Part shown: positions 18,986 to 61,242 of the stretch, one piece after another
Layout: each line of letters begins with the position of its first letter
How positions within the stretch are numbered: position 1 is the first letter of the stretch
Virus record (IMG/VR): IMGVR_UViG_3300027844_002282
Strand: one strand, 5' to 3'
Source: a virus
Length of the DNA: 64,000 bases
Program-made: the position numbers and the translations under genes
The notes under the pieces: model-generated
Seen by the model: the letters and a program-made list of their open reading frames with translations, nothing else
Databases searched by the model: none
What the model was told of the DNA's origin: nothing

Positions 18986-21253
18986 CTAACTTGAACTTGA
19001 ACTACTTGAGCAACTACTTGAACATGATGTCCATGTTCCAGAGTTCAAAAATTTACCGGACCCGTTATTATACAAAGATCTGGCCATTGCTGCACAGGCT
19101 CGCTCATTTGACAGAGTGGGCTCTTTCCAAACTGCCACCTCATCCATTGTGACATCAAAATTTGACCAATTCCCATGTAAAAGGAATGGGCACGAACTCT
19201 CACTTATAGTCCCATCATAAGATTTGCTCTCCTTCAAAACGCCATCTATATAAAGATGTATATTACTACCGTCTGCCACACCAAAGATATGATGAAAAAC
19301 GTCTTCGGTAACCTCATGATTACCCATTGATGAATAAGTCAAATCTGATTGTCTAATCAGCCAACTAACTCTAAAATGCTGTGAAGAACTCCCATTAAAT
19401 GTAAAGTGGTAACTGCTAAGTTTACCCTCTGAAGATCCACCAGAACCAGAATTGTAATGTTGTTTTACCCACATTGAAATAGCAACCTTATTGGTGGCGG
19501 ATAAATCAATGGAGTCCGGTGCCATCAGACTCGCCGCAGCTCTACCAGTTGGCCCTGGCCCGCGACGGCCTGCGCTTTCACTAAACAAGGATGCGTTGCC
19601 CTCTTTGCCGGAAACTGCGTCAATGGTCTCATTGTCTATTAAATCATTCGACCCTACCGAGTCGAACCTCCTACCAGTCGTTTCCTCCATATCCCAATAC
19701 GCCACTAATTTTGAATCCTGGTCTGTAATGTTGGTACAAAAATTCGTTGAGCTACTCGAACTCGCGCTACTTACAGAGCTTGTGCTGGTACTAACATAGC
19801 TTGAATATGAAGGACTTGATGGGCTAAGCCAACTCGAACACGAACAGCTACTACTGCTGCTTGAGGAGCTTGAGCAAGAACAGCTTGAACTACTCAACCA
19901 GCTTGAGCAACTACTCGAACTACTCGCTACTGTACCATGCTCGAATCTCCAAAATATATGTACTTTTTCATCCCCATCATAGTTTTCACCAGACGTGAAT
20001 GTTATCTTAATATCCTTTGAATCATCAAACCCAAAATTTCCAGGTGGGTGAATACTTCCATTTTCATATAGATCAAACTTACTTCTATCAAGAGTCTCGG
20101 CGGTGTTGGCATAATCAATCAGACCGTCAAAAAATGGATTCAACTTTGTAAAATCATTCAATAATCCATCGTCAAAATATTCTGATAATACCGGGCTTGT
20201 TCCGACAATCACATGTGCATCATACCTGTCTGGGAAAGTTCCCGCCGATATCTCAATAAATGATGACGTGTTGAAAGATCTACCTGGAGTCTTTATAAAA
20301 TCAGACGACTGTAGAACTTTTGCTATCCAAGTCGTGTTCCCACCATCCCAATAAGCCCTGTAAACGGCGAACAGGGCCGTTTTTGTATCTATTGATGGTG
20401 AAATAAAAACCATTTTATTTCCGTACAAGGAGCCGAGTGGTCCGTCCTCACCAAACCCTACAAAAGACGATCCGTCAAAATAAGTGAACCCAGTCGGAGA
20501 ATCTCCAGAATCTCTGTACATCAATGGTGTAACCAAACTTCCAGTATAATCGGAAACGTCTCCAGATGATCCTATATAAATCTCATAATGGATATTAGAA
20601 GACGGTGGCCAGGTGTTAAAGTAATCGCTTATTTCCGGTAGAAGATCTACGGATAATGGTGACGTTCTGTTTTCTCCAGTATTAGAAAAGGTGCTTGCAT
20701 ACAGGTTTATTTTTTTGCCAGAATAACTAGAATACTCGTTAGACAGTGTTATATCACCGCCAGATACTGTGCAGCCCCTCGATCTATGGAATAAGTACAA
20801 GTCCTGAGTGAAATCAATTGTCAAATCTGTTGCTATAAATTTAGACTTTAATAGCCTTGTAGTATGCCATGATGTATACCCCTCTCCAGGCAGGGAGTAT
20901 ATCTTATCATATTCTATTGCCCAGCCATCTATATCTATAGATTCAAACTTATACAAAACATCGGCGGTCAACTCTCCATCCAGAACAAAATCCTGATTAT
21001 ATGTGAGAACATACTCAATATGGGCATAAGAATACCCAATTGGGACATCTGGCAAATCTGTTTCCAGAATTAATATGGTACTGTCTGAATAATAAGGTGG
21101 CGTAATACTAGATTTCGCCCATGACGAAACATCAATATATTTTCTTGGGTTCGATCTATAAATGGTCCCCTCACTATTCAATGTCAAGTCCACATCGCCA
21201 GAATCCACCCCTACAATATGTCCAAAATGCTTGTTTAGTTTTACTTTCTTCAT
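18986..21253 (-). CDS. LamG/ConA-like domain tail-type protein with Ser/Cys tracts
   Basis: LVAYWDMEE...ISMWVK...FHHIFGV..IHLYIDG..MDEVAVW; two poly-Ser/Cys tracts; start placed at MKKVKL after a GGGG RBS. Confidence 0.75.
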   Translation of the reverse strand: MKKVKLNKHFGHIVGVDSGDVDLTLNSEGTIYRSNPRKYIDVSSWAKSSITPPYYSDSTILILETDLPDVPIGYSYAHIEYVLTYNQDFVLDGELTADVLYKFESIDIDGWAIEYDKIYSLPGEGYTSWHTTRLLKSKFIATDLTIDFTQDLYLFHRSRGCTVSGGDITLSNEYSSYSGKKINLYASTFSNTGENRTSPLSVDLLPEISDYFNTWPPSSNIHYEIYIGSSGDVSDYTGSLVTPLMYRDSGDSPTGFTYFDGSSFVGFGEDGPLGSLYGNKMVFISPSIDTKTALFAVYRAYWDGGNTTWIAKVLQSSDFIKTPGRSFNTSSFIEISAGTFPDRYDAHVIVGTSPVLSEYFDDGLLNDFTKLNPFFDGLIDYANTAETLDRSKFDLYENGSIHPPGNFGFDDSKDIKITFTSGENYDGDEKVHIFWRFEHGTVASSSSSCSSWLSSSSCSCSSSSSSSSSCSCSSWLSPSSPSYSSYVSTSTSSVSSASSSSSTNFCTNITDQDSKLVAYWDMEETTGRRFDSVGSNDLIDNETIDAVSGKEGNASLFSESAGRRGPGPTGRAAASLMAPDSIDLSATNKVAISMWVKQHYNSGSGGSSEGKLSSYHFTFNGSSSQHFRVSWLIRQSDLTYSSMGNHEVTEDVFHHIFGVADGSNIHLYIDGVLKESKSYDGTISESSCPFLLHGNWSNFDVTMDEVAVWKEPTLSNERACAAMARSLYNNGSGKFLNSGTWTSCSSSCSSSSSSS

Positions 21254-28060: not shown

Positions 28061-30496
28061 CTATACTGTTTCAAAAAATTCCGGCTGCTCTTTAACTACT
28101 TTTGCATGTATTTCTTTCAATTTTTCAAGGCCGTATTCCTTTAGCATGTATTCTCCGTCAGGGCCGTAGCCTATGATCTTCTCATATTCATATGCCAATC
28201 TCTTTTCAGAAACCTTCGCGCCGTCAAACAATAATTCTTTATTTCTATGAATCGACTCATCAAGCTCTGGGTCTATAGAATATCCTCTAAGGTTTAATAT
28301 GATCGCCCTCGTAACCATGAGCGGATTAATCGGGATAACAACGTCTGGGTTGAGGATCGGTCTAACAATCTTGGCCTCAATATCATCCATGGCTTTTCCC
28401 GTTATATCGTAGATATTATTGTCAATAAAACTATAAAGTAGACTATTGACGGTAAAGTCTCTGGCATACACGTCTAAGTGAATTGGGGTCGTTGAGATAT
28501 TCTCTTCTCTCATAAGCGGTCTTACACCCTCTGTGAAAATACGTTTTCCACGAAAGTCCATCGATACGCCTTCATACTCATAACTCATCGTTCCAGTTCT
28601 TTGGCTAAATCCGATATCGACAATACCAAGATCTGCCGCAAGAAGACCGCCAAGTTTTTGAACGTTCTCGACTACCGGAGATGTGAAATCAAGATCGTTA
28701 ACCTCAAGGAAATTCTTTGTCGTTGCCAATGTTCTTGGGAATCCACCAACTACGAAACAGTCTTCTATCCCATATGTCTGTGATAATATCTTACACTTAC
28801 TAAGTATCTTATTGATTGTTTCCTTAAGTCTTCCCTGAAGGTTAACAAATGAGTTTACACGATCAATGTTAGATCCAGAGTTTACATTGTCCTCAATTTC
28901 TTTAATATCTTCTAAGTCTTCATCCCCAGTAATCCAAACTACAACTTTATCCTTGAGATTGTCATTCTCAAATATTGCATACGGAAAATCTCCTAATGCG
29001 TCAACAACATGAGGTAAAGCGTCTTCATGAACAATCAGCCTGGCTACATTTATCTTTTTTGACAAAACCATCTTCTTATAATACCCAACCCTTCTCAATA
29101 TTTGAACAATATAATTCTTAGATTCGTTATCTGTCACATTATAAAGAGAGTTGCCAACTGCCCCAGCAGTACCAAAATCGGATCGGCCAGACCAATAAGT
29201 ATCTCTATCGTTCCACTTCTCTGGTCTATTCCTATGTTCTGGTGAAGCAAGGTCAATCTGGATATCATTTTTCCAGTAAGATCTACCAAATCTATCTTTG
29301 GCTATTTTACCCCTACCGTACCTTTCATCATATCTTCTCATCCAATATCTTCTGTCTGAAGATTCTCCGTCGTAATATCCATGGGTGTCAGAAATATCAT
29401 CAGCCTCAAATGGCTCTCTCCAACCCGCATTAAATCCATTTAGATATCCAAAGACGCCACCAATATGCGGGCCACCAACGTTACTTCTCCATGACGCGAA
29501 CTTAATAAGTTTATTTGTCGATGCCGCTTTTTGAATAGGAATAATCAAAGCGTGAGGAAGCTTGTCCATTAACATTTTCTCTAACGTTACAGACTCTGTC
29601 TCAGCAACCCCCTTCTCTTTCCTTTCTTGAGTAAGGTTTTCCTCACAAGTTTTATCTCCCGATTCGTCACCAGTGTGAAGATTGTTTTCAAGAAGGGTTT
29701 CCACTGAGTCATACTTTGTCCCTTCGGTAGCGAATTCTTGAAAGTTAACCTCTTGATTGGATCTCAACACTGTTTCAATTAGACTCCACTGGAACGGGGC
29801 GATCTGAGCCTTCCTATACCAACTATTTTCATTTGAAGCGTGAGTCATTTCCCCTGTCGTTTCAAAAGGCAGGTTAAACCTATTCATCCCCCAAGAAAGA
29901 AGGGAATTTTGCAACTCTTGACATGGGCCTTCGTCCCCACCTTTGGCATGTAAGGCTTCGTGGGCAATAATGGAAGCTAACTGAACTTTTCGAAGGTTGT
30001 TCTTATCATCCTCGGTAATCGTATCTGGATCGGAGTCCAAAATCATTTGGTCAGTAATATCCATGATTCTTGCAATATCGATGCCAATAACGCTTCCACC
30101 TTCAGATTTTTTCTTTTCAAAAAGTCTTCTCATCTCTTCTGTCACTTCTTCTGGATCTTTATCTGGAGAATATGCATATAGAAGATCACTTTCTGAAGGG
30201 CTCTCTGGAATATTAGTTACATAACCAGATCTTTCAAGCTCTTTCTTAACCCTGACCCAATCAACTGTTTCGTTCAATGATGGGTTGAAAACCCCGAATG
30301 CATCTACATCAGTAGAATTGTAAATGTATGCTACATTTTTCAACAGATCTCCCCCAGCAAATTCGTTAACTAACGAAACAGCCTCGGAAGCGCCGGGGAA
30401 TCTCCCGGAAATTTCATCAGAATTAACATTTCCTGAGCCTACGTTCTGCTCAATTGTGTCAACCTTCTGTTCTATCTCTTGCAATTCTGGATTCAT
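28061..30496 (-). CDS. CCA-adding / poly(A) polymerase family nucleotidyltransferase with long N-terminal extension (HEXXH domain plus repeat linker)
   Basis: CFVVGGFPR...NDLDF...ARDFTVNSL class II nucleotidyltransferase head motifs; IAHEALH near the N-terminus. Confidence 0.8.
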   Translation of the reverse strand: MNPELQEIEQKVDTIEQNVGSGNVNSDEISGRFPGASEAVSLVNEFAGGDLLKNVAYIYNSTDVDAFGVFNPSLNETVDWVRVKKELERSGYVTNIPESPSESDLLYAYSPDKDPEEVTEEMRRLFEKKKSEGGSVIGIDIARIMDITDQMILDSDPDTITEDDKNNLRKVQLASIIAHEALHAKGGDEGPCQELQNSLLSWGMNRFNLPFETTGEMTHASNENSWYRKAQIAPFQWSLIETVLRSNQEVNFQEFATEGTKYDSVETLLENNLHTGDESGDKTCEENLTQERKEKGVAETESVTLEKMLMDKLPHALIIPIQKAASTNKLIKFASWRSNVGGPHIGGVFGYLNGFNAGWREPFEADDISDTHGYYDGESSDRRYWMRRYDERYGRGKIAKDRFGRSYWKNDIQIDLASPEHRNRPEKWNDRDTYWSGRSDFGTAGAVGNSLYNVTDNESKNYIVQILRRVGYYKKMVLSKKINVARLIVHEDALPHVVDALGDFPYAIFENDNLKDKVVVWITGDEDLEDIKEIEDNVNSGSNIDRVNSFVNLQGRLKETINKILSKCKILSQTYGIEDCFVVGGFPRTLATTKNFLEVNDLDFTSPVVENVQKLGGLLAADLGIVDIGFSQRTGTMSYEYEGVSMDFRGKRIFTEGVRPLMREENISTTPIHLDVYARDFTVNSLLYSFIDNNIYDITGKAMDDIEAKIVRPILNPDVVIPINPLMVTRAIILNLRGYSIDPELDESIHRNKELLFDGAKVSEKRLAYEYEKIIGYGPDGEYMLKEYGLEKLKEIHAKVVKEQPEFFETV

Positions 30497-32916: not shown

Positions 32917-33002
32917 ATTCTTTATAAGAGCGTTTATAGTCTTTGGCGCGAACCTGCTCCAGACTATCCTTATTTTACACTCAAGGACTATGTAAATCCT
33001 TT
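32917..33002 (-). promoter_or_regulatory. Two tandem putative late promoters
   Basis: AAAGA-N18-AGAAT (32917-32944) and AAAGG-N18-TGTAA (32975-33002). Confidence 0.5.
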
Positions 33003-34752
33003 ATGTAAAGTGTATATTAGCAACAACTCCCTGCGGGAGAGGATTTTTAAGAACTCTACCGATAGCCATCCAGGCAGCACCAGCGACACAATCAAGAAGA
33101 TCATCCGTGGTTATATCAGCCTGTGGGTCAGGAAAAATCTGGACCCCCCTCTGTGTTGGTCTATACTTAATATTAAGCATTTCACCAACAACCAAATCGC
33201 TTCCATAAAGAACCAATTCTCTCCTGTCCATGAGATCGAATAGGTTTTTGTAGTAATTAGCCTTTGGACCTCTTCCAAATGGTAACTGCTTGGCGTAAAA
33301 CCCCTTATTACTCAGGTAGCTTATGGAATGAACACTATTCCACGTGTCATATGTTACTGATATAGGCTTAAATATTCTTGCTATTTCAAGAATTTCATCA
33401 TCCAACTTTACAATATCAAGACCGACACCTGGCTGTGGTTTCCAGACCGCGTGGAAGGCTAATACTATCTTAAACCTCTTTTCCCCAGACGATGTGACAT
33501 ATCTCACTCTTTTAACAACAGCACAAGCGTAAGTGTCGTGTTTTGAGGCCGGGTCAATATGCATAAAGTATTCACAGCCACGGTCTCTTTGGTCCTCCAT
33601 ACTAAGATTAGGGTCAACTGCACCCATAACCTTGTCTTCAGGGAAGTACTTATGTACAGAGCCCATTGTAGACCACATTGCGCCAAACTCAATATTGAAA
33701 GCCTCTGGGTCTTTACTTCTCAACATTGTCAAATAGTCGCCATCATATGGGAATTCATCATTAATATCCCATGTTGCAAGGTGAAACCCAAGAATTCTGT
33801 CAAATTGCTTATCAATACTCTGCCCCTGCTTATGTATTGAATGGAAAATTCCAGACGGAATACCAGTCGTGGATAACTCCACCAACTTTCCTCCACCATA
33901 TGTGTCAAACTTTGCCATGGACGGAATCAAAGCGTTATAGAAGTCTCTTCCTGAAACAACTGGGTGTTCAGTGTAGTACTGTAGCTCATCAAACAGGATA
34001 CAAATAGCTGAATAACCACGCAAACTGTCCGGGTTACTATGTCCGCATATCAAAACAATAGATCCCTCAACAGCGATATTCATATCTGGATCGTCTTTTT
34101 TTCTAAGATCGATATCTGTATACAATCTTATCTCAGATGACGAGTCTCCCTTTCCCTGAACTCTCCCCTTAAAAAATGGAGCATTTCTTATCCTCGCCTT
34201 AACTTGTGAAAACAATCTTCCACCCTGTTTCTGGGAGTTTGCCACATTCAATATTGCTATCTCTTCATCGTATGGGATGTTATAATGCTTATATGGATCG
34301 CCAAGCTTGATTAACTTGTACGACTCGTAAGCGCAAATAACTGATGCGAGAAGGGTCTTGCTCGCACGTCTACCGCAGGCGAGATTTAGTTCCATAAAAT
34401 TGAAATTGTGAGGTTCTCCGGGATTGACCCCATCAACTTTTCTTTTTAACTTTTCAATGGCCGAATCTTGGCTCTTGGCGTATAGCCAGTTCCATTCTTC
34501 ATCCGTAAACTCTGTTTTTTCATTACCAGGAGTTCCGTAATAGAATGATTTGAGAATAACTCTCTGACTTAAAAATAAAACAAGGTTGTTTTTAGGTAGG
34601 GCCATCATGTCGTCCCTTTCACAAAAAGATATAACATCTATTAGACCTTCTTCAGTCTCGCCTTCTTCTATAACAAGATTATTCTTTTTTCTTATTTCGG
34701 TGACAGCGTTAGATAAGAAATTAACGTTGTTCCCTTTATTTTTCTTTTCCAT
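33001..34752 (-). CDS. terL: Terminase large subunit
   Basis: Walker A ACGRRASKT, LRG...ILFDE Walker B, STT motif III, nuclease HIDPA...D and TDDLLD. Confidence 0.9.
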   Translation of the reverse strand: MEKKNKGNNVNFLSNAVTEIRKKNNLVIEEGETEEGLIDVISFCERDDMMALPKNNLVLFLSQRVILKSFYYGTPGNEKTEFTDEEWNWLYAKSQDSAIEKLKRKVDGVNPGEPHNFNFMELNLACGRRASKTLLASVICAYESYKLIKLGDPYKHYNIPYDEEIAILNVANSQKQGGRLFSQVKARIRNAPFFKGRVQGKGDSSSEIRLYTDIDLRKKDDPDMNIAVEGSIVLICGHSNPDSLRGYSAICILFDELQYYTEHPVVSGRDFYNALIPSMAKFDTYGGGKLVELSTTGIPSGIFHSIHKQGQSIDKQFDRILGFHLATWDINDEFPYDGDYLTMLRSKDPEAFNIEFGAMWSTMGSVHKYFPEDKVMGAVDPNLSMEDQRDRGCEYFMHIDPASKHDTYACAVVKRVRYVTSSGEKRFKIVLAFHAVWKPQPGVGLDIVKLDDEILEIARIFKPISVTYDTWNSVHSISYLSNKGFYAKQLPFGRGPKANYYKNLFDLMDRRELVLYGSDLVVGEMLNIKYRPTQRGVQIFPDPQADITTDDLLDCVAGAAWMAIGRVLKNPLPQGVVANIHFT

Positions 34753-49458: not shown

Positions 49459-50277
49459 ATGAAAACTTACTGCATAATCGGTGCCTACGAGTATAATGGC
49501 AGTGCTCGTGATGCGATAGTCGAATACTTTTGTATGCAGGGGGTCGATGGCTTGGTTGTCGTTGATCATAGAAGCCAAAGACCGGCTAGCGACGAGATAG
49601 GGAATGCCGATGCTTGGATGTATCTATGCAGTGCTGCCTGTTCTGCTGGGATGGAGGTGATTTTTCAGTATCACGAATTACCGCGAAGCATAGACCAAGG
49701 ACGAATCGAGAAGATCGTGTCTACTGGGTGCGGCAAGATAAGTATCGGGAGCGCAGAAACTACAGAATGGGTCGGCTCTCACGAGTTGGCGGAAGAAAAC
49801 ATTGAGATTGGCAAGCGCATGGGTTTCGAGTGGGTGTGCGGCATAACGCCGAGGACGATCCTAATGGATTTACTTACTCGTAAGCGGAGAGAAGTTCTCG
49901 TCAGGAATAATGTCTTGTGCCTTACCCTTTCTCCCTATATCCTGTGGGGGTATATGTTTGCTGACGAGCGATTCCCCCATCAATGGGAAACCACGCTGGC
50001 GGGAAAGAACCTTCATGTCGAGTACGGTCTCACGCCGGAAAGACTTGCTGACTACGTTGAGCCACTTGACATAATGGCGGGAGTGGGATCACAGGTGGGT
50101 CTTGATGCCGGTAGCGCAGTATATGCCAAGATGTTAAACTTCAAGGGTTTGGTGATCTCGCTGCCGTTCGATCTGACGGGTGTGTTCGACACCTCAGTAA
50201 GAATGTCGCCTCCGGGCAGCTACCCGACTATTTGTGGGAATTTTGAAGAGGGAGGATACAGGAATGCCTATGCGTGA
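49459..50277 (+). CDS. Hypothetical protein, possible TIM-barrel-like enzyme
   Basis: 272 aa with alternating beta/alpha pattern; overlaps the next gene. Confidence 0.55.
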   Translation: MKTYCIIGAYEYNGSARDAIVEYFCMQGVDGLVVVDHRSQRPASDEIGNADAWMYLCSAACSAGMEVIFQYHELPRSIDQGRIEKIVSTGCGKISIGSAETTEWVGSHELAEENIEIGKRMGFEWVCGITPRTILMDLLTRKRREVLVRNNVLCLTLSPYILWGYMFADERFPHQWETTLAGKNLHVEYGLTPERLADYVEPLDIMAGVGSQVGLDAGSAVYAKMLNFKGLVISLPFDLTGVFDTSVRMSPPGSYPTICGNFEEGGYRNAYA

Positions 50278-51238
50278 CGGGATCGTGCTGAGATTTATTC
50301 CGGGGGTCACTTATTCTGTCGTCATTTTTCATATTGGTCACATGACCACGATGATGTGCAATTTTCTTTACGCGAAAAAGCATCATGGTATCTGCTATAT
50401 TGCGCCAGAGATAAGTACAATCGGGTTAAACGGAGCGGGGTTTATAAGACCGTACCTGTCGATAAGTGGCTATCGAACAGATACTTCTCTCAGGCTGTTT
50501 GGTAATCTGGGTATCCCGGAAGTACTGATAAGACCGATTCCAACATACTGGGGTGGCTTAGAGCTACGCCAAGAGATGAGTAAAAAACTTCATGCAGAAA
50601 CTGGAGCATCGATTAGCCAAATATTGGATGAATTCCCGAAGGCTGATATCAGTAGTTCGATAGTCGCTGTTTTTGATTTTCTCTTGGGGTCGAATGTCAT
50701 AATTCGCGGTGGTGATTGGAAGGGCATTGTAGATCCCCATATCCGTGCTTCGACTTATGTAGAGACCCATCGAGCGATCCTAAATTATTTAAGAGGGATA
50801 GTCGGTCAAGGTCCGATTACGGAACACTTCGCACCACTAGTTCTTTCGGACGGAGAGAAGATATCCAAGTCAGCCATTGCTGACATGGGAGAAGACCCCG
50901 TAGTAGTATTCCGAGAAGGGGGATGTTCGACGGAAAATGCCCCCGGAATTTCCCCTCTGGCGTATCTGGTATGGATGGCTGGAAAGGTTGGAGAGGATCT
51001 TAGGTCGATTGATGATTTTGTCAATTATTATCAGCTTTTCGACATCGAGGCTGTTCCGGAAGAGCTTGATTTTGTATTGGATGACCTGCTCAATGCCGAC
51101 GAGGTTGTCAAAAAAGCGTTCGGTCATACATCGAGTAGCGGCGATGACTTGGTGAAACACCTTGCTGTTTTCAGCGATGCTTTAGGGGTTAGTCGGGTCG
51201 ATGGCGTTTACGAGGATACTATAATTTGTAATTTTTGA
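50264..51238 (+). CDS. Minimal glutamyl-tRNA synthetase-like (GluRS/GluQ-RS-like) catalytic domain protein
   Basis: VLRFIP...FHIGH...NFLYAKKHHG, IIRGGDW, PLVLSDGEKISKS are GluRS HIGH, IRGED and KMSKS equivalents. Confidence 0.7.
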   Translation: MPMRDGIVLRFIPGVTYSVVIFHIGHMTTMMCNFLYAKKHHGICYIAPEISTIGLNGAGFIRPYLSISGYRTDTSLRLFGNLGIPEVLIRPIPTYWGGLELRQEMSKKLHAETGASISQILDEFPKADISSSIVAVFDFLLGSNVIIRGGDWKGIVDPHIRASTYVETHRAILNYLRGIVGQGPITEHFAPLVLSDGEKISKSAIADMGEDPVVVFREGGCSTENAPGISPLAYLVWMAGKVGEDLRSIDDFVNYYQLFDIEAVPEELDFVLDDLLNADEVVKKAFGHTSSSGDDLVKHLAVFSDALGVSRVDGVYEDTIICNF

Positions 51239-52044: not shown

Positions 52045-52116
52045 GCCTACGTAGCTCAACTGGAAGAGCACTTCGCTACGAAGAGGTTGCAAGTTCAAAC
52101 CTTGCAGTGGGTACCA
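52045..52116 (+). pseudogene. tRNA-Arg(ACG)-derived gene with a 4-nt anticodon-arm deletion
   Basis: CTTCG-CTA-CGAAG where CTTCG-CT-ACG-AA-CGAAG is expected. Confidence 0.65.
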
Positions 52117-52120
52117 TTTT

Positions 52121-52265
52121 GATAATGTGGCGGAATTGGAATACGCGCCGCTGTAATAGCGGTAGAGAGCAATGGGTTCAACTCCCATTTAAGGTACGGT
52201 TACCGCTTGGCTGTAATAGCTAAGGCAATGTCTCCTTGTGGGTTCGAGACCCATCATTATCATCA
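52121..52265 (+). ncRNA. Double tRNA-Leu(TAA)-like RNA with two anticodon arms and two T-arms
   Basis: GATAATG/CATTATC acceptor, Leu-type D-arm, GCTGTAATAGC twice, T-arms with TTCAACT and TTCGAGA loops. Confidence 0.7.
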
Positions 52266-57056: not shown

Positions 57057-57136
57057 GGACGCATAGCTTAGTCTGGCTAAAGCGCTTGTATGACACATGC
57101 AAGAGATCGTTGGTTCGAATCCAACTGTGTTCACCA
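57057..57136 (+). tRNA. tRNA-Val(GAC) with 2-nt expanded anticodon loop
   Basis: CTTGT-ATGACACAT-GCAAG (9-nt loop); ACCA. Confidence 0.65.
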
Positions 57137-60670: not shown

Positions 60671-60868
60671 ATGCTAAGTAGAGAGTTCCTGTTAGATTTA
60701 GAAAAATGTTGTGGCAGCGGATGCTTTAACTGCCCATATGACCCAAGGCACACGAGAGGGTCAGAAAAAATTTCAAAAGACGCCCCTGTAGTTCAATCGG
60801 AAGAACAGTTGCCTTCGAAGCAATCGCGTCCGGGTTCGAATCCTGGCAGGGGTACCAATAACGATTAA
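60671..60868 (+). CDS. DUF5522-like small Cys-rich protein whose 3' end runs through a tRNA
   Basis: LSREFLL...CCGSGCFNCPY. Confidence 0.55.
   Translation: MLSREFLLDLEKCCGSGCFNCPYDPRHTRGSEKISKDAPVVQSEEQLPSKQSRPGSNPGRGTNND
60782..60857 (+). tRNA. tRNA-Arg(TCG)
   Basis: GTTGC-CT-TCG-AA-GCAAT, ACCA. Confidence 0.9.
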
Positions 60869-60977
60869 TCTGGATTAGGGAGCCAGTTGAATGCCAACTT
60901 CCCAAGGACGGGCGTTGAGGAATCCTCAATAGCTCTTACGAGAGCGAATCCTTGTTAAAAACACGTCGCCATTTTAC

Positions 60978-61242
60978 GTCGATGTAGGCGAGAGGAATAG
61001 CCATCGTAAACACGGAAATGAAGTCCCTAACGGGAGTATGAGAAGATATATCTCGGTAATATAGCTGCGTTGTGGCGTTCCCGGTATACGTCTTTTGGTA
61101 TAAAGGTTGTAAATGAGCTTCTAAGGCGACCTGGAAAAGCGAAGAGTGGAACCAGGTGGGTATAAGTAACCTGCCTTATTGATGCCCGTGACCTAACAGT
61201 ACCGTTCATACCACGTCGATTCAAGTCCGACCATCGACACCA
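60978..61242 (+). ncRNA. 265-nt tRNA-like RNA with about 200 nt of structured insert
   Basis: GTCGATG/CATCGAC-ACCA acceptor, TAGGC..GG..GCC D-arm, GTCGA-TTCAAGT-CCGAC T-arm. Confidence 0.65.

What the first reader, a model, noticed from the sequence alone, without database searches (positions are those of the whole stretch)
60978..61242. 265-nt giant tRNA-like RNA
Seen: perfect 7-bp acceptor with ACCA, D-arm and T-arm, but about 200 nt replace the anticodon and variable region, with stems GTATGA/TCATAC, CCTGG/CCAGG, GGGTAT..AAG/CTT..ATGCCC and TATAC/GTATA. It lacks the G3-U70 alanine identity of tmRNA. Inference: a tmRNA-like architecture with a different identity, or a tRNA with an unrecognised intron; possibly a new RNA class.
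Basis: partly seen in the sequence, partly recalled or inferred. Interest (0 to 1): 0.7.

Follow-up and report, generated by a model that had tools for sequence, protein, structure and literature searches.

The report
Giant tRNA-shaped phage RNA gene
A marine giant phage carries, among its tRNA genes, a 265-base gene with the complete top half of a tRNA but about 210 unrelated bases where the anticodon arm should be. It is not a tmRNA and not a known self-splicing intron, and with no relatives or RNA data I cannot say whether the extra part is cut out or kept.

Summary
Window 60978-61242 (+) has a perfect 7-bp acceptor stem with ACCA, U8, a D arm with GG, and a T arm with a UUCAAGU loop, in line with a phage tRNA island. 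A purpose-built scan finds two such oversized frames in 72 kb, against one in 1.7 Mb of shuffled sequence.

- **Not the phage's tmRNA.** A canonical tmRNA lies 7.6 kb downstream.
- **Not a recognisable group I intron.** Rfam finds nothing at E<=10. Two real phage group I introns searched the same way score 23 bits.
- **No bulge-helix-bulge splice motif.**

Removing 184 nt gives a tRNA-Val(AAC) that ARAGORN accepts. With the middle shuffled, 49 of 60 controls also give an acceptable "spliced tRNA", and the real anticodon stem is poor, so that reading has no statistical support.

No homologue was found. The phage is near-clonal worldwide, its flanking genes are orphans, and no RNA run was listed.

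My odds: an unspliced, tRNA-scaffolded RNA about 0.4, a protein-spliced intron about 0.3, a decayed gene about 0.2.

The scan read this same stretch twice in overlapping windows. It has noted similar kinds of RNA on other DNA, but no look-alike of this sequence.

The parts
60978..60984 (+). Acceptor stem, 5' strand GUCGAUG (RNA nt 1-7)
   Evidence: Sequence. Perfect 7-bp complement of 61232-61238. Picked up by the frame scan.
60987..61002 (+). D arm: GGCG-AGAGGAAU-AGCC (nt 10-25), with G13.A22 unpaired, A14 and G18G19 present; preceded by U8 A9
61004..61015 (+). Stub hairpin UCGU-AAAC-ACGG (nt 27-38), where an anticodon arm would begin. The loop has 4 nt, so no 7-nt anticodon loop is present.
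   Evidence: Pair probabilities 0.7-0.8 in the constrained fold.
61024..61035 (+). Small hairpin UCCC-UAAC-GGGA (nt 47-58)
   Evidence: Pair probability 0.88-0.99.
61036..61041 (+). 5' strand GUAUGA of the stem that carries the large domain (nt 59-64)
Evidence: Pairs with 61206-61211, probability about 0.68.
61042..61095 (+). Arm A: a 54-nt irregular hairpin (nt 65-118)
   Evidence: On its own z=-1.1, not significant.
61097..61203 (+). Arm B: a 107-nt branched hairpin (nt 120-226), including the CCUGG/CCAGG helix. Its base pairs GGUAU..AGGUU with GACCU..GUACC.
   Evidence: MFE -31.2 kcal/mol, 26% of the ensemble, z=-2.46, 3 of 200 shuffles as stable.
61206..61211 (+). 3' strand UCAUAC of the carrying stem (nt 229-234), followed by CAC (C at position 48)
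61215..61231 (+). T arm GUCGA-UUCAAGU-CCGAC (nt 238-254), with an A.C mismatch at 53:61
61232..61242 (+). Acceptor 3' strand CAUCGAC, discriminator A, encoded CCA
61009..61192 (+). Alternative reading: a 184-nt intervening sequence (nt 32-215). Its removal gives an 81-nt tRNA-Val(AAC). Its ends pair as CACGG/CCGUG.
   Evidence: ARAGORN with introns at a relaxed threshold. This is the only splice of 986 tried that passes ARAGORN's default. The shuffled control passes in 49 of 60 cases.

Best explanation
This is a real RNA gene that keeps a complete tRNA frame but does not become an ordinary decoding tRNA.

Inferred sequence of events:
1. It is transcribed with the neighbouring tRNAs.
2. RNase P cuts its 5' end (the phage encodes its own RNase P RNA), and it ends at the encoded CCA.
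3. It folds into the tRNA elbow (acceptor/T helix plus D arm).
4. It keeps the roughly 210-nt middle part, which projects as a stub hairpin, a small hairpin and a 6-bp stem bearing two long arms.

The tRNA half would supply processing, stability and possibly recognition by tRNA-binding enzymes. The large domain would be the working part, binding a partner that is still unknown. This is the logic of tmRNA and of laboratory 'tRNA scaffolds'.

Shown: the frame, its position, and the absence of known intron, ribozyme or tmRNA signatures. Inferred: transcription, processing, no splicing, and a role for the domain.
For: - The frame is complete and far beyond chance, and it sits in line in the tRNA island.
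- No canonical anticodon arm can be assembled. With a 4-5-nt variable loop, the 3' strand would be UUCAU or UCAUA, and neither pairs with nt 27-31 (sequence).
- The only ARAGORN-acceptable splice has a stem with a C.C mismatch, a G.U pair and a 10-nt variable loop. It is no better than shuffled inserts, 49 of 60 of which pass.
- A genuine intron-bearing phage tRNA found with the same scanner (tRNA-Leu UAA in LR745208.1) has a perfect 5-bp anticodon stem and a 5-nt variable loop.
- No Rfam family matches at E<=10, while the phage's own tmRNA intron and the LR745208.1 intron each score 23 bits with RF00028 in searches of similar size.
- Arm B is a well-defined fold (z=-2.46, 26% of the ensemble) in which the supposed anticodon loop and 3' anticodon strand are base-paired.
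- The insert's G+C is 45.7%, close to the phage's RNase P RNA (47.5%) and tmRNA (43%), and above the nearby spacers (30-42%).
- The same island holds other tRNA-like genes with anticodon loops too short to decode: 52045-52113 with a 3-nt loop and 52121-52264 with GUAAU pentaloops.
Against: - There is only one sequence. No homologue, covariation or natural variants were found, since all contigs sampled are identical.
- There is no expression data.
- Folding energy of the whole RNA is not significantly better than shuffles (z=-1.2).
- No partner protein has been identified.
- A spliced product with a Val-type anticodon (A35 C36) and A73 can be drawn, and the island has no other clear Val tRNA.
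- The phage encodes an RNA ligase and Tpt1, which could reseal a cut tRNA.
Confidence: 0.4

Rival explanations
1. A tRNA gene (Val-type, anticodon AAC or CAC) is interrupted at the 5' edge of the anticodon loop by a 184-nt intervening sequence that is not a ribozyme. Proteins cut it out, and the phage's RNA ligase, phosphoesterase and Tpt1 kit reseals the halves.
For: - ARAGORN in intron mode gives tRNA-Val(AAC) with the insert at 31/32 and a loop CUAACAG containing U33 and A37.
- It is the only one of 986 splices that passes the default threshold.
- A73 plus A35 C36 fit the known bacterial Val identity elements (from my own knowledge).
- The insert ends pair as CACGG/CCGUG.
- ARAGORN places the insert of the second oversized frame, 52121-52264, at the same stem/loop boundary.
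- RNA ligase PF09414 and Tpt1 PF01885 lie in the same genome.
- Phage tRNA introns of unknown mechanism are in print for Lak megaphages (PMC6784885).
Against: - Shuffled inserts give an acceptable spliced tRNA in 49 of 60 trials.
- At a relaxed threshold, ARAGORN in intron mode calls many false tRNAs in coding DNA.
- The anticodon stem has a C.C mismatch and a G.U pair, and the variable loop has 10 nt.
- A34 anticodons other than Arg-ACG are unusual in bacteria (from my own knowledge).
- There is no bulge-helix-bulge motif, no long duplex and no tRNA-like element at the junctions (read by eye).
- Pfam finds no splicing endonuclease in the window.
- Ligase, 2H and KptA kits are common tRNA-repair sets in jumbo phages, so they do not point to splicing in particular (PMC9503650).
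Confidence: 0.3
2. A decayed or disrupted tRNA gene. A former tRNA, perhaps class II and Leu-like, or a fusion of two paralogues, had its anticodon region replaced by unrelated sequence and no longer has a function.
For: - No functional anticodon arm is present.
- The T arm has an A.C mismatch at the normally invariant 53:61 pair.
- The overall fold is not significantly stable.
- No homologues were found.
- The neighbouring 52121-52264 RNA looks like an internal duplication of anticodon arm plus T arm, which shows that rearrangements happen in this island.
Against: - The acceptor stem (7 of 7 pairs), the D arm, the T-loop consensus, U8, C48 and the encoded CCA are all intact.
- The insert has no copy elsewhere in 72 kb.
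- Its G+C is that of the phage's structured RNAs rather than its spacers.
- Arm B folds better than 98% of shuffles.
- Phage genomes seldom keep about 200 nt of dead sequence (general knowledge).
Confidence: 0.2
3. A second, tmRNA-like rescue RNA that is charged with an amino acid other than alanine and carries a short tag-coding frame.
For: It has a tRNA top half with an ACCA end around a large inner domain. The phage invests heavily in translation RNAs: tmRNA, RNase P RNA and about 20 tRNAs.
Against: - ARAGORN tmRNA mode finds nothing even at 80% threshold, and no Rfam tmRNA model matches at E<=10.
- It has C3-G70 instead of G3.U70, and a true D stem, unlike tmRNA.
- The only long open frame (33 codons from nt 87) runs through the predicted helices and does not end in a typical tag (by eye).
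- The phage already has a canonical tmRNA scoring 91.9 bits.
Confidence: 0.05

Closest known systems
tmRNA (Rfam RF00023)
   Same: The termini form a tRNA-like acceptor/T-arm module ending in ACCA, and a domain of more than 200 nt sits where the anticodon arm would be. The gene lies in a phage region of translation-related RNAs.
   Different: There is no G3.U70, a real D stem is present, and there is no pseudoknot-plus-tag-ORF layout. It does not match ARAGORN or Rfam tmRNA models. The phage has a separate canonical tmRNA.
tRNA genes with group I introns in the anticodon loop, such as tRNA-Leu(UAA), found here in uncultured phage LR745208.1 at 167806-168091
   Same: An oversized tRNA frame of similar length (286 against 265 nt) with the same UUCAAGU T loop, in a huge-phage tRNA island.
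   Different: That gene has U-1, the R and S core elements, a 23-bit RF00028 match and a perfect mature anticodon arm. This one has none of these.
'Enigmatic' introns in tRNA genes of Lak megaphages (Devoto et al. 2019, PMC6784885)
   Same: Phage tRNA genes carry inserts in the anticodon region that match no Rfam family.
   Different: As I read the paper, tRNAscan in eukaryotic mode types the Lak tRNAs once the intron is removed, and one Lak intron may itself encode a tRNA. Here the insert is 184-211 nt, has no tRNA-like element, and the spliced product is marginal.
Class II tRNAs and long-armed allo-tRNAs; giant-armed tRNA-like RNAs noted earlier in this scan (e1-2167918, e1-5324776)
   Same: A tRNA frame with a 3-bp D stem (G13.A22), A73, and an expansion leaving the body just before the T arm. 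Weak blastn matches of the T arm and acceptor are to phage tRNA-Leu (E about 8, not significant).
   Different: Known variable arms have up to about 25 nt, and the scan's families up to about 100 nt, all with a recognisable anticodon arm. Here the expansion is about 200 nt and branched, and the anticodon arm is a 4-bp stub with a 4-nt loop.
Engineered tRNA scaffolds for RNA expression (Ponchon and Dardel 2007; from my own knowledge, not checked here)
   Same: The anticodon arm of a tRNA is replaced by a foreign structured RNA, and the tRNA body secures processing and stability.
   Different: That is a laboratory design. Whether this natural gene works the same way is untested.

Membership tests
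tRNA (RF00005) | 7-bp acceptor stem, discriminator base and CCA end | tested here: met
   GUCGAUG/CAUCGAC + A + CCA.
tRNA (RF00005) | D arm and T arm with the conserved elbow nucleotides (U8, A14, G18G19, U54 U55 C56, A58) | tested here: met
   All are present. The only deviation is A53.C61 in place of G53-C61.
tRNA (RF00005) | 5-bp anticodon stem with a 7-nt loop (U33, purine 37) at the normal distance from the D and T arms | tested here: not met
   There is no Rfam tRNA hit at E<=10 and no default ARAGORN hit. nt 27-38 form a 4-bp, 4-nt-loop stub.
tmRNA (RF00023 and related models) | G3.U70 alanine identity pair | tested here: not met
   Pair 3:70 is C-G.
tmRNA (RF00023 and related models) | Match to the tmRNA covariance models or ARAGORN tmRNA mode; tag reading frame after pseudoknot 1 | tested here: not met
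   No hit. No credible tag frame by eye. The true tmRNA is at L001:18851-19545.
Group I intron (RF00028) | Catalytic core (P3-P8, R and S elements) detectable by the covariance model | tested here: not met
   No hit at E<=10 in a 416-nt search. Two phage group I introns score 23.0 and 23.3 bits in searches of 301 and 501 nt.
Group I intron (RF00028) | U at -1 of the 5' exon and G as the last intron base, giving a correct mature tRNA | tested here: not met
   Joining after U30 to after G213 or G222 gives an 8-nt loop or too short a body (worked out).
Archaeal/eukaryal protein-spliced tRNA intron | Bulge-helix-bulge: two 3-nt bulges separated by a 4-bp helix at the splice sites | tested here: not met
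   For both candidate anticodon stems, the 4 nt after the 5' strand do not pair with the 4 nt before the 3' bulge (by eye). This was not tested with a dedicated program.
Archaeal/eukaryal protein-spliced tRNA intron | A splicing endonuclease (EndA/Sen family) available | tested here: inconclusive
   Pfam finds none among 40 ORFs of the window, nor in the precomputed Pfam hits of about 30 kb downstream. The rest of a genome of more than 160 kb, and the host, were not seen.
Class II (long variable arm) tRNA | Normal anticodon arm plus a single extra stem-loop of about 10-25 nt between positions 44 and 48 | tested here: not met
   The extra region is about 200 nt and branched, and the anticodon arm is a stub.
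YrlA-type Y RNA (RF02553) | Ro-binding terminal helix with an internal tRNA-like module; Ro60/Rsr gene nearby | tested here: not met
   No Rfam hit. The termini here are the acceptor stem itself. No TROVE domain appears among the ORFs scanned.

The most novel reading that the evidence does not exclude
This is the first seen member of a new class of phage RNA: a chargeable tRNA body (7-bp acceptor, ACCA) that permanently carries a branched domain of about 200 nt in place of the anticodon arm. It would work off the decoding path, for example as a carrier or decoy for tRNA-binding enzymes or host tRNA-targeting defences. It may be served by the phage's own RNase P RNA, its CCA-adding enzyme and the two truncated GluRS-like proteins in the same island.
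Probability: 0.3. Interest if true: 0.75.

Novelty: new variant of a known kind. Interest (0 to 1): 0.5.

Why it matters
If the 265-nt form is the mature RNA, phages have built a large non-coding RNA on a tRNA body a second time, independently of tmRNA. It would join several tRNA look-alikes in this island that cannot decode. That would point to uses of the tRNA shape in phage-host conflict beyond supplying codons.

If the insert is instead removed, it would be a long, non-ribozyme intron in a bacterial virus. That would require a protein splicing route not known in bacteria, and it would give the widespread phage ligase/Tpt1 kits a second job.

Either answer can be obtained with one RT-PCR or small-RNA library from water where this phage is abundant.

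Tried and rejected
**Searches for relatives or variants that found nothing useful**
- blastn of the region, of the RNA alone and of the spliced exons against 50,697 GenBank phages gave only chance-level T-arm matches.
- Exact-pattern scans of IMG/VR with the T arm plus acceptor, the T arm, the D arm and an insert loop gave one chance hit inside a coding region.
- One metagenome scan with the D-arm 18-mer gave 11 unrelated hits. That collection does not even hold this phage.
- Protein-based locus searches with a flanking ORF and the terminase found nothing.
- The two flanking ORFs (130 and 132 aa) have no homologues beyond this phage.
- The GluRS-like protein has one relative at 79% identity, on a 6.7-kb contig with a different gene order and no retrievable DNA.
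- Eight further contigs of this phage (of 24 indexed for the flanking gene) are 99.95% identical to the window. The four that span the RNA carry it unchanged, and six more match its 3' 128 nt exactly.
- Four sequencing runs with partial shares, laid on the region, showed no variant; the low shares reflect low coverage. No RNA holder was listed.
- Five IMG/VR contigs matched an RNase P RNA core motif; three of them carry RNase P RNA next to tRNA genes. All five were scanned whole. There is no DNA similarity, and the only oversized frame is two adjacent tRNA-Ser genes.
- No whole genome is held for the window, and JGI contigs cannot be searched as records.

**Readings considered and dropped**
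- The missing S-domain of the phage's minimal RNase P RNA supplied in trans: no RNase P hit.
- A short coding gene: only 3-8-codon frames on the + strand.
- A transposon-like insertion with a target duplication: the AACA repeat at both junctions is too short, and there are no terminal inverted repeats beyond CACGG/CCGUG.
- A fusion of two tandem paralogous tRNAs: no remnant of an inner T arm or D arm.

Full report
**Setting.** The window comes from an uncultured marine phage. It has a large terminase at 33001-34752, and its closest GenBank terminase is only 22-25% identical. Positions 48.8-61.4 kb on the + strand form a tRNA island with 13 ARAGORN and 17 Infernal tRNA calls. No whole genome is held for the window. 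The same phage lies on many public contigs, up to 112 kb long, at 99.95% identity. It occurs in seawater metagenomes from 16 studies.

**The observation.** RNA numbering runs from 60978. The sequence shows:
- acceptor stem GUCGAUG/CAUCGAC (1-7/255-261), then A73 and CCA;
- U8 and A9;
- D stem GGC(G)/(A)GCC with loop AGAGGAAU;
- C at position 48;
- T arm GUCGA-UUCAAGU-CCGAC, with one A.C mismatch at 53:61.

The elbow contacts (U8-A14, G15-C48, G18G19 with U55 C56, U54-A58) are all possible.

I wrote a scanner for a T arm, a 7-bp acceptor, U8 and a D arm with GG at a total length of 100-500 nt. In 72 kb of this phage it finds only this gene and 52121-52262. Shuffled sequence gives 1 hit in 1.7 Mb. 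The frame is therefore real and lies in register with the island. Standard tools miss it: ARAGORN at default settings, Rfam at gathering thresholds, and Rfam at E<=10 on a 416-nt slice all find nothing.

**Not the tmRNA.**
- ARAGORN tmRNA mode at 80% threshold finds nothing, and no tmRNA model matches.
- The phage has a canonical tmRNA 7.6 kb downstream, at L001:18851-19545. It scores 91.9 bits and has G3.U70.
- That tmRNA is split in its T loop by an insert of about 240 nt that starts after a U and ends in G.
- Searched alone, this insert matches the group I model at 23 bits, E=6e-4.
- The same stretch also holds a 198-nt RNase P RNA (63.9 bits, below Rfam's threshold of 100; E=7e-18).

**Not a recognisable group I intron.** The tmRNA intron is one positive control. 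A second came from the scanner. In the uncultured huge phage LR745208.1, which has the nearest terminase, a 286-nt frame with the same UUCAAGU T loop is a classical tRNA-Leu(UAA) gene. It carries a group I intron (23.3 bits, with GAGACUAGA and GAAGAUAUAGUCC elements), a perfect anticodon stem UCCGC/GCGGA and a 5-nt variable loop. The present insert gives no RF00028 hit at E<=10 in a search of the same size. No U(-1)/terminal-G pair of sites yields a proper tRNA. By eye I find no bulge-helix-bulge motif, no RNase III-length duplex and no inner tRNA-like element.

**The intron reading.** With introns allowed and the threshold relaxed to 90%, ARAGORN calls tRNA-Val(AAC) with a 184-nt insert at 31/32 and the loop CUAACAG. 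Of 986 possible excisions, only this one passes ARAGORN's default.

The control undercuts this result:
- Keeping the frame and shuffling nt 27-237, 49 of 60 shuffles also contain at least one passing excision, often dozens.
- At relaxed thresholds, the intron mode calls many false tRNAs inside coding DNA.
- The proposed stem has U.G, C.C and only three Watson-Crick pairs, and the variable loop has 10 nt.

Excision to a Val tRNA therefore remains possible, with A73, A35 and C36 in its favour and no other clear Val tRNA in the island. It has no statistical support.

The phage does encode an RNA ligase (PF09414), a metallophosphoesterase and Tpt1 (PF01885) 19-30 kb downstream. Such kits are common tRNA-repair sets in jumbo phages (PMC9503650), so they do not argue specifically for splicing. 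Pfam finds no splicing endonuclease among 40 ORFs of the window.

**The inner part.** I fixed the frame and folded the rest. The ensemble favours:
- a 3-4-bp stub with a 4-nt loop (nt 27-38);
- a hairpin UCCC-UAAC-GGGA (47-58);
- the stem GUAUGA/UCAUAC (59-64/229-234);
- two arms on that stem, A (65-118) and B (120-226).

Arm B alone is well defined: 26% of the ensemble, z=-2.46, and only 3 of 200 shuffles as stable. In it, the supposed anticodon loop and 3' anticodon strand are paired. The whole RNA is not significantly stable (z=-1.2), and nt 32-215 give z=-2.0. G+C of the insert is 45.7%. The phage's RNase P RNA has 47.5% and its tmRNA 43%, while nearby spacers have 30-42%. There is no paralogue of the insert in 72 kb.

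**Context in the island.**
- tRNA 52045-52113 (47 bits) has the anticodon arm CUUCG-CUA-CGAAG, a 3-nt loop.
- 52121-52264 is a 144-nt frame with two GCU-GUAAU-AGC hairpins and an inner T-arm copy.
- 57057-57136 has the loop UGACACA, without U33.

Several tRNA-shaped genes here therefore cannot decode in the usual way. This makes a non-decoding role for the 265-nt RNA more plausible than it would be in isolation. LR756504.1 also has oversized frames of 143 and 186 nt. In the first, a normal-looking arm UCUCC-CUGUCUC-GGAGA is followed by a long extra region, and ARAGORN again misreads it as an intron.

**Search for relatives.** Nothing was found by any of these routes:
- GenBank phages;
- IMG/VR patterns;
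- one metagenome scan;
- flanking proteins;
- the terminase.

All copies of the phage carry an identical RNA. One phage with a GluRS-like protein 79% identical exists, but it has a different gene order and no retrievable DNA.

**Verdict.** The gene is real and unusual. I put an unspliced, tRNA-scaffolded RNA at about 0.4, a protein-spliced intron in a Val-type tRNA at about 0.3, a decayed gene at about 0.2, and a tmRNA-like rescue RNA at about 0.05. Everything beyond the sequence features is inference from one sequence. One RT-PCR or small-RNA data set would decide between the first three.

Noticed in passing
L001:18851-19545 (about 70295-70989 in window numbering, beyond the window end): The phage has a canonical tmRNA (RF00023, 91.9 bits, G3.U70). 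An ORF-less insert of about 240 nt splits it in the T loop. The insert starts after a U, ends in G, and matches the group I model at 23 bits when searched alone. An HNH-like 191-aa gene follows.
   Followed up: partly
L001:13009-13206 (about 64453-64650 in window numbering): A 198-nt RNase P RNA with CR-I and P4 but most of the specificity domain missing (RF00010, 63.9 bits, below the threshold of 100; E=7e-18). Three IMG/VR phage contigs (L009, L011, L012) also carry RNase P RNAs of 191-322 nt next to tRNA genes.
   Followed up: partly
window 52121-52264: A second oversized tRNA frame of 144 nt. It has two hairpins with the identical top GCU-GUAAU-AGC and an inner T-arm copy AUGGG-UUCAACU-CCCAU. 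It looks like an internal duplication of anticodon arm plus T arm. ARAGORN in intron mode reads it as tRNA-Tyr(GUA) with a 58-nt insert. Fold z=-2.6.
   Followed up: partly
window 52045-52113 and 57057-57136: Two tRNA genes have anticodon arms that cannot decode normally. One is CUUCG-CUA-CGAAG, with a 3-nt loop. The other has the loop UGACACA, without U33 or a purine at 37, and ARAGORN calls it Cys(ACA).
   Followed up: partly
window 60858-60977: The 120-nt spacer between tRNA-Arg and the giant RNA has 45% G+C and three neat hairpins. Its fold is not significantly stable (z=-1.5), and it matches no Rfam family.
   Followed up: partly
L003:19457-20116 and L016:15221-15817, 20286-20660: RNA ligase (PF09414), a weak metallophosphoesterase hit and Tpt1/KptA (PF01885) lie 19-30 kb downstream in the same genome. 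A PolyA_pol-type nucleotidyltransferase of 811 aa lies at window 28061-30496.
   Followed up: partly
window 50234-51238: A GluRS-like 334-aa protein sits inside the tRNA island, with only a weak class I synthetase hit. Its one relative (79% identity) sits next to a tubulin gene and a 5'-3' exonuclease gene on another phage contig.
   Followed up: partly
L048:7806-8091 (LR745208.1 167806-168091): An unannotated uncultured 485-kb phage carries a tRNA-Leu(UAA) gene with a classical group I intron between U34 and A35.
   Followed up: yes
L051 (LR756504.1, - strand, 143-nt frame) and L053 (186-nt frame): There are two more oversized tRNA frames in a 636-kb uncultured phage. The first has a GUC-type anticodon arm followed by a long extra region. 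The second has an insert of about 110 nt of unknown nature.
   Followed up: no
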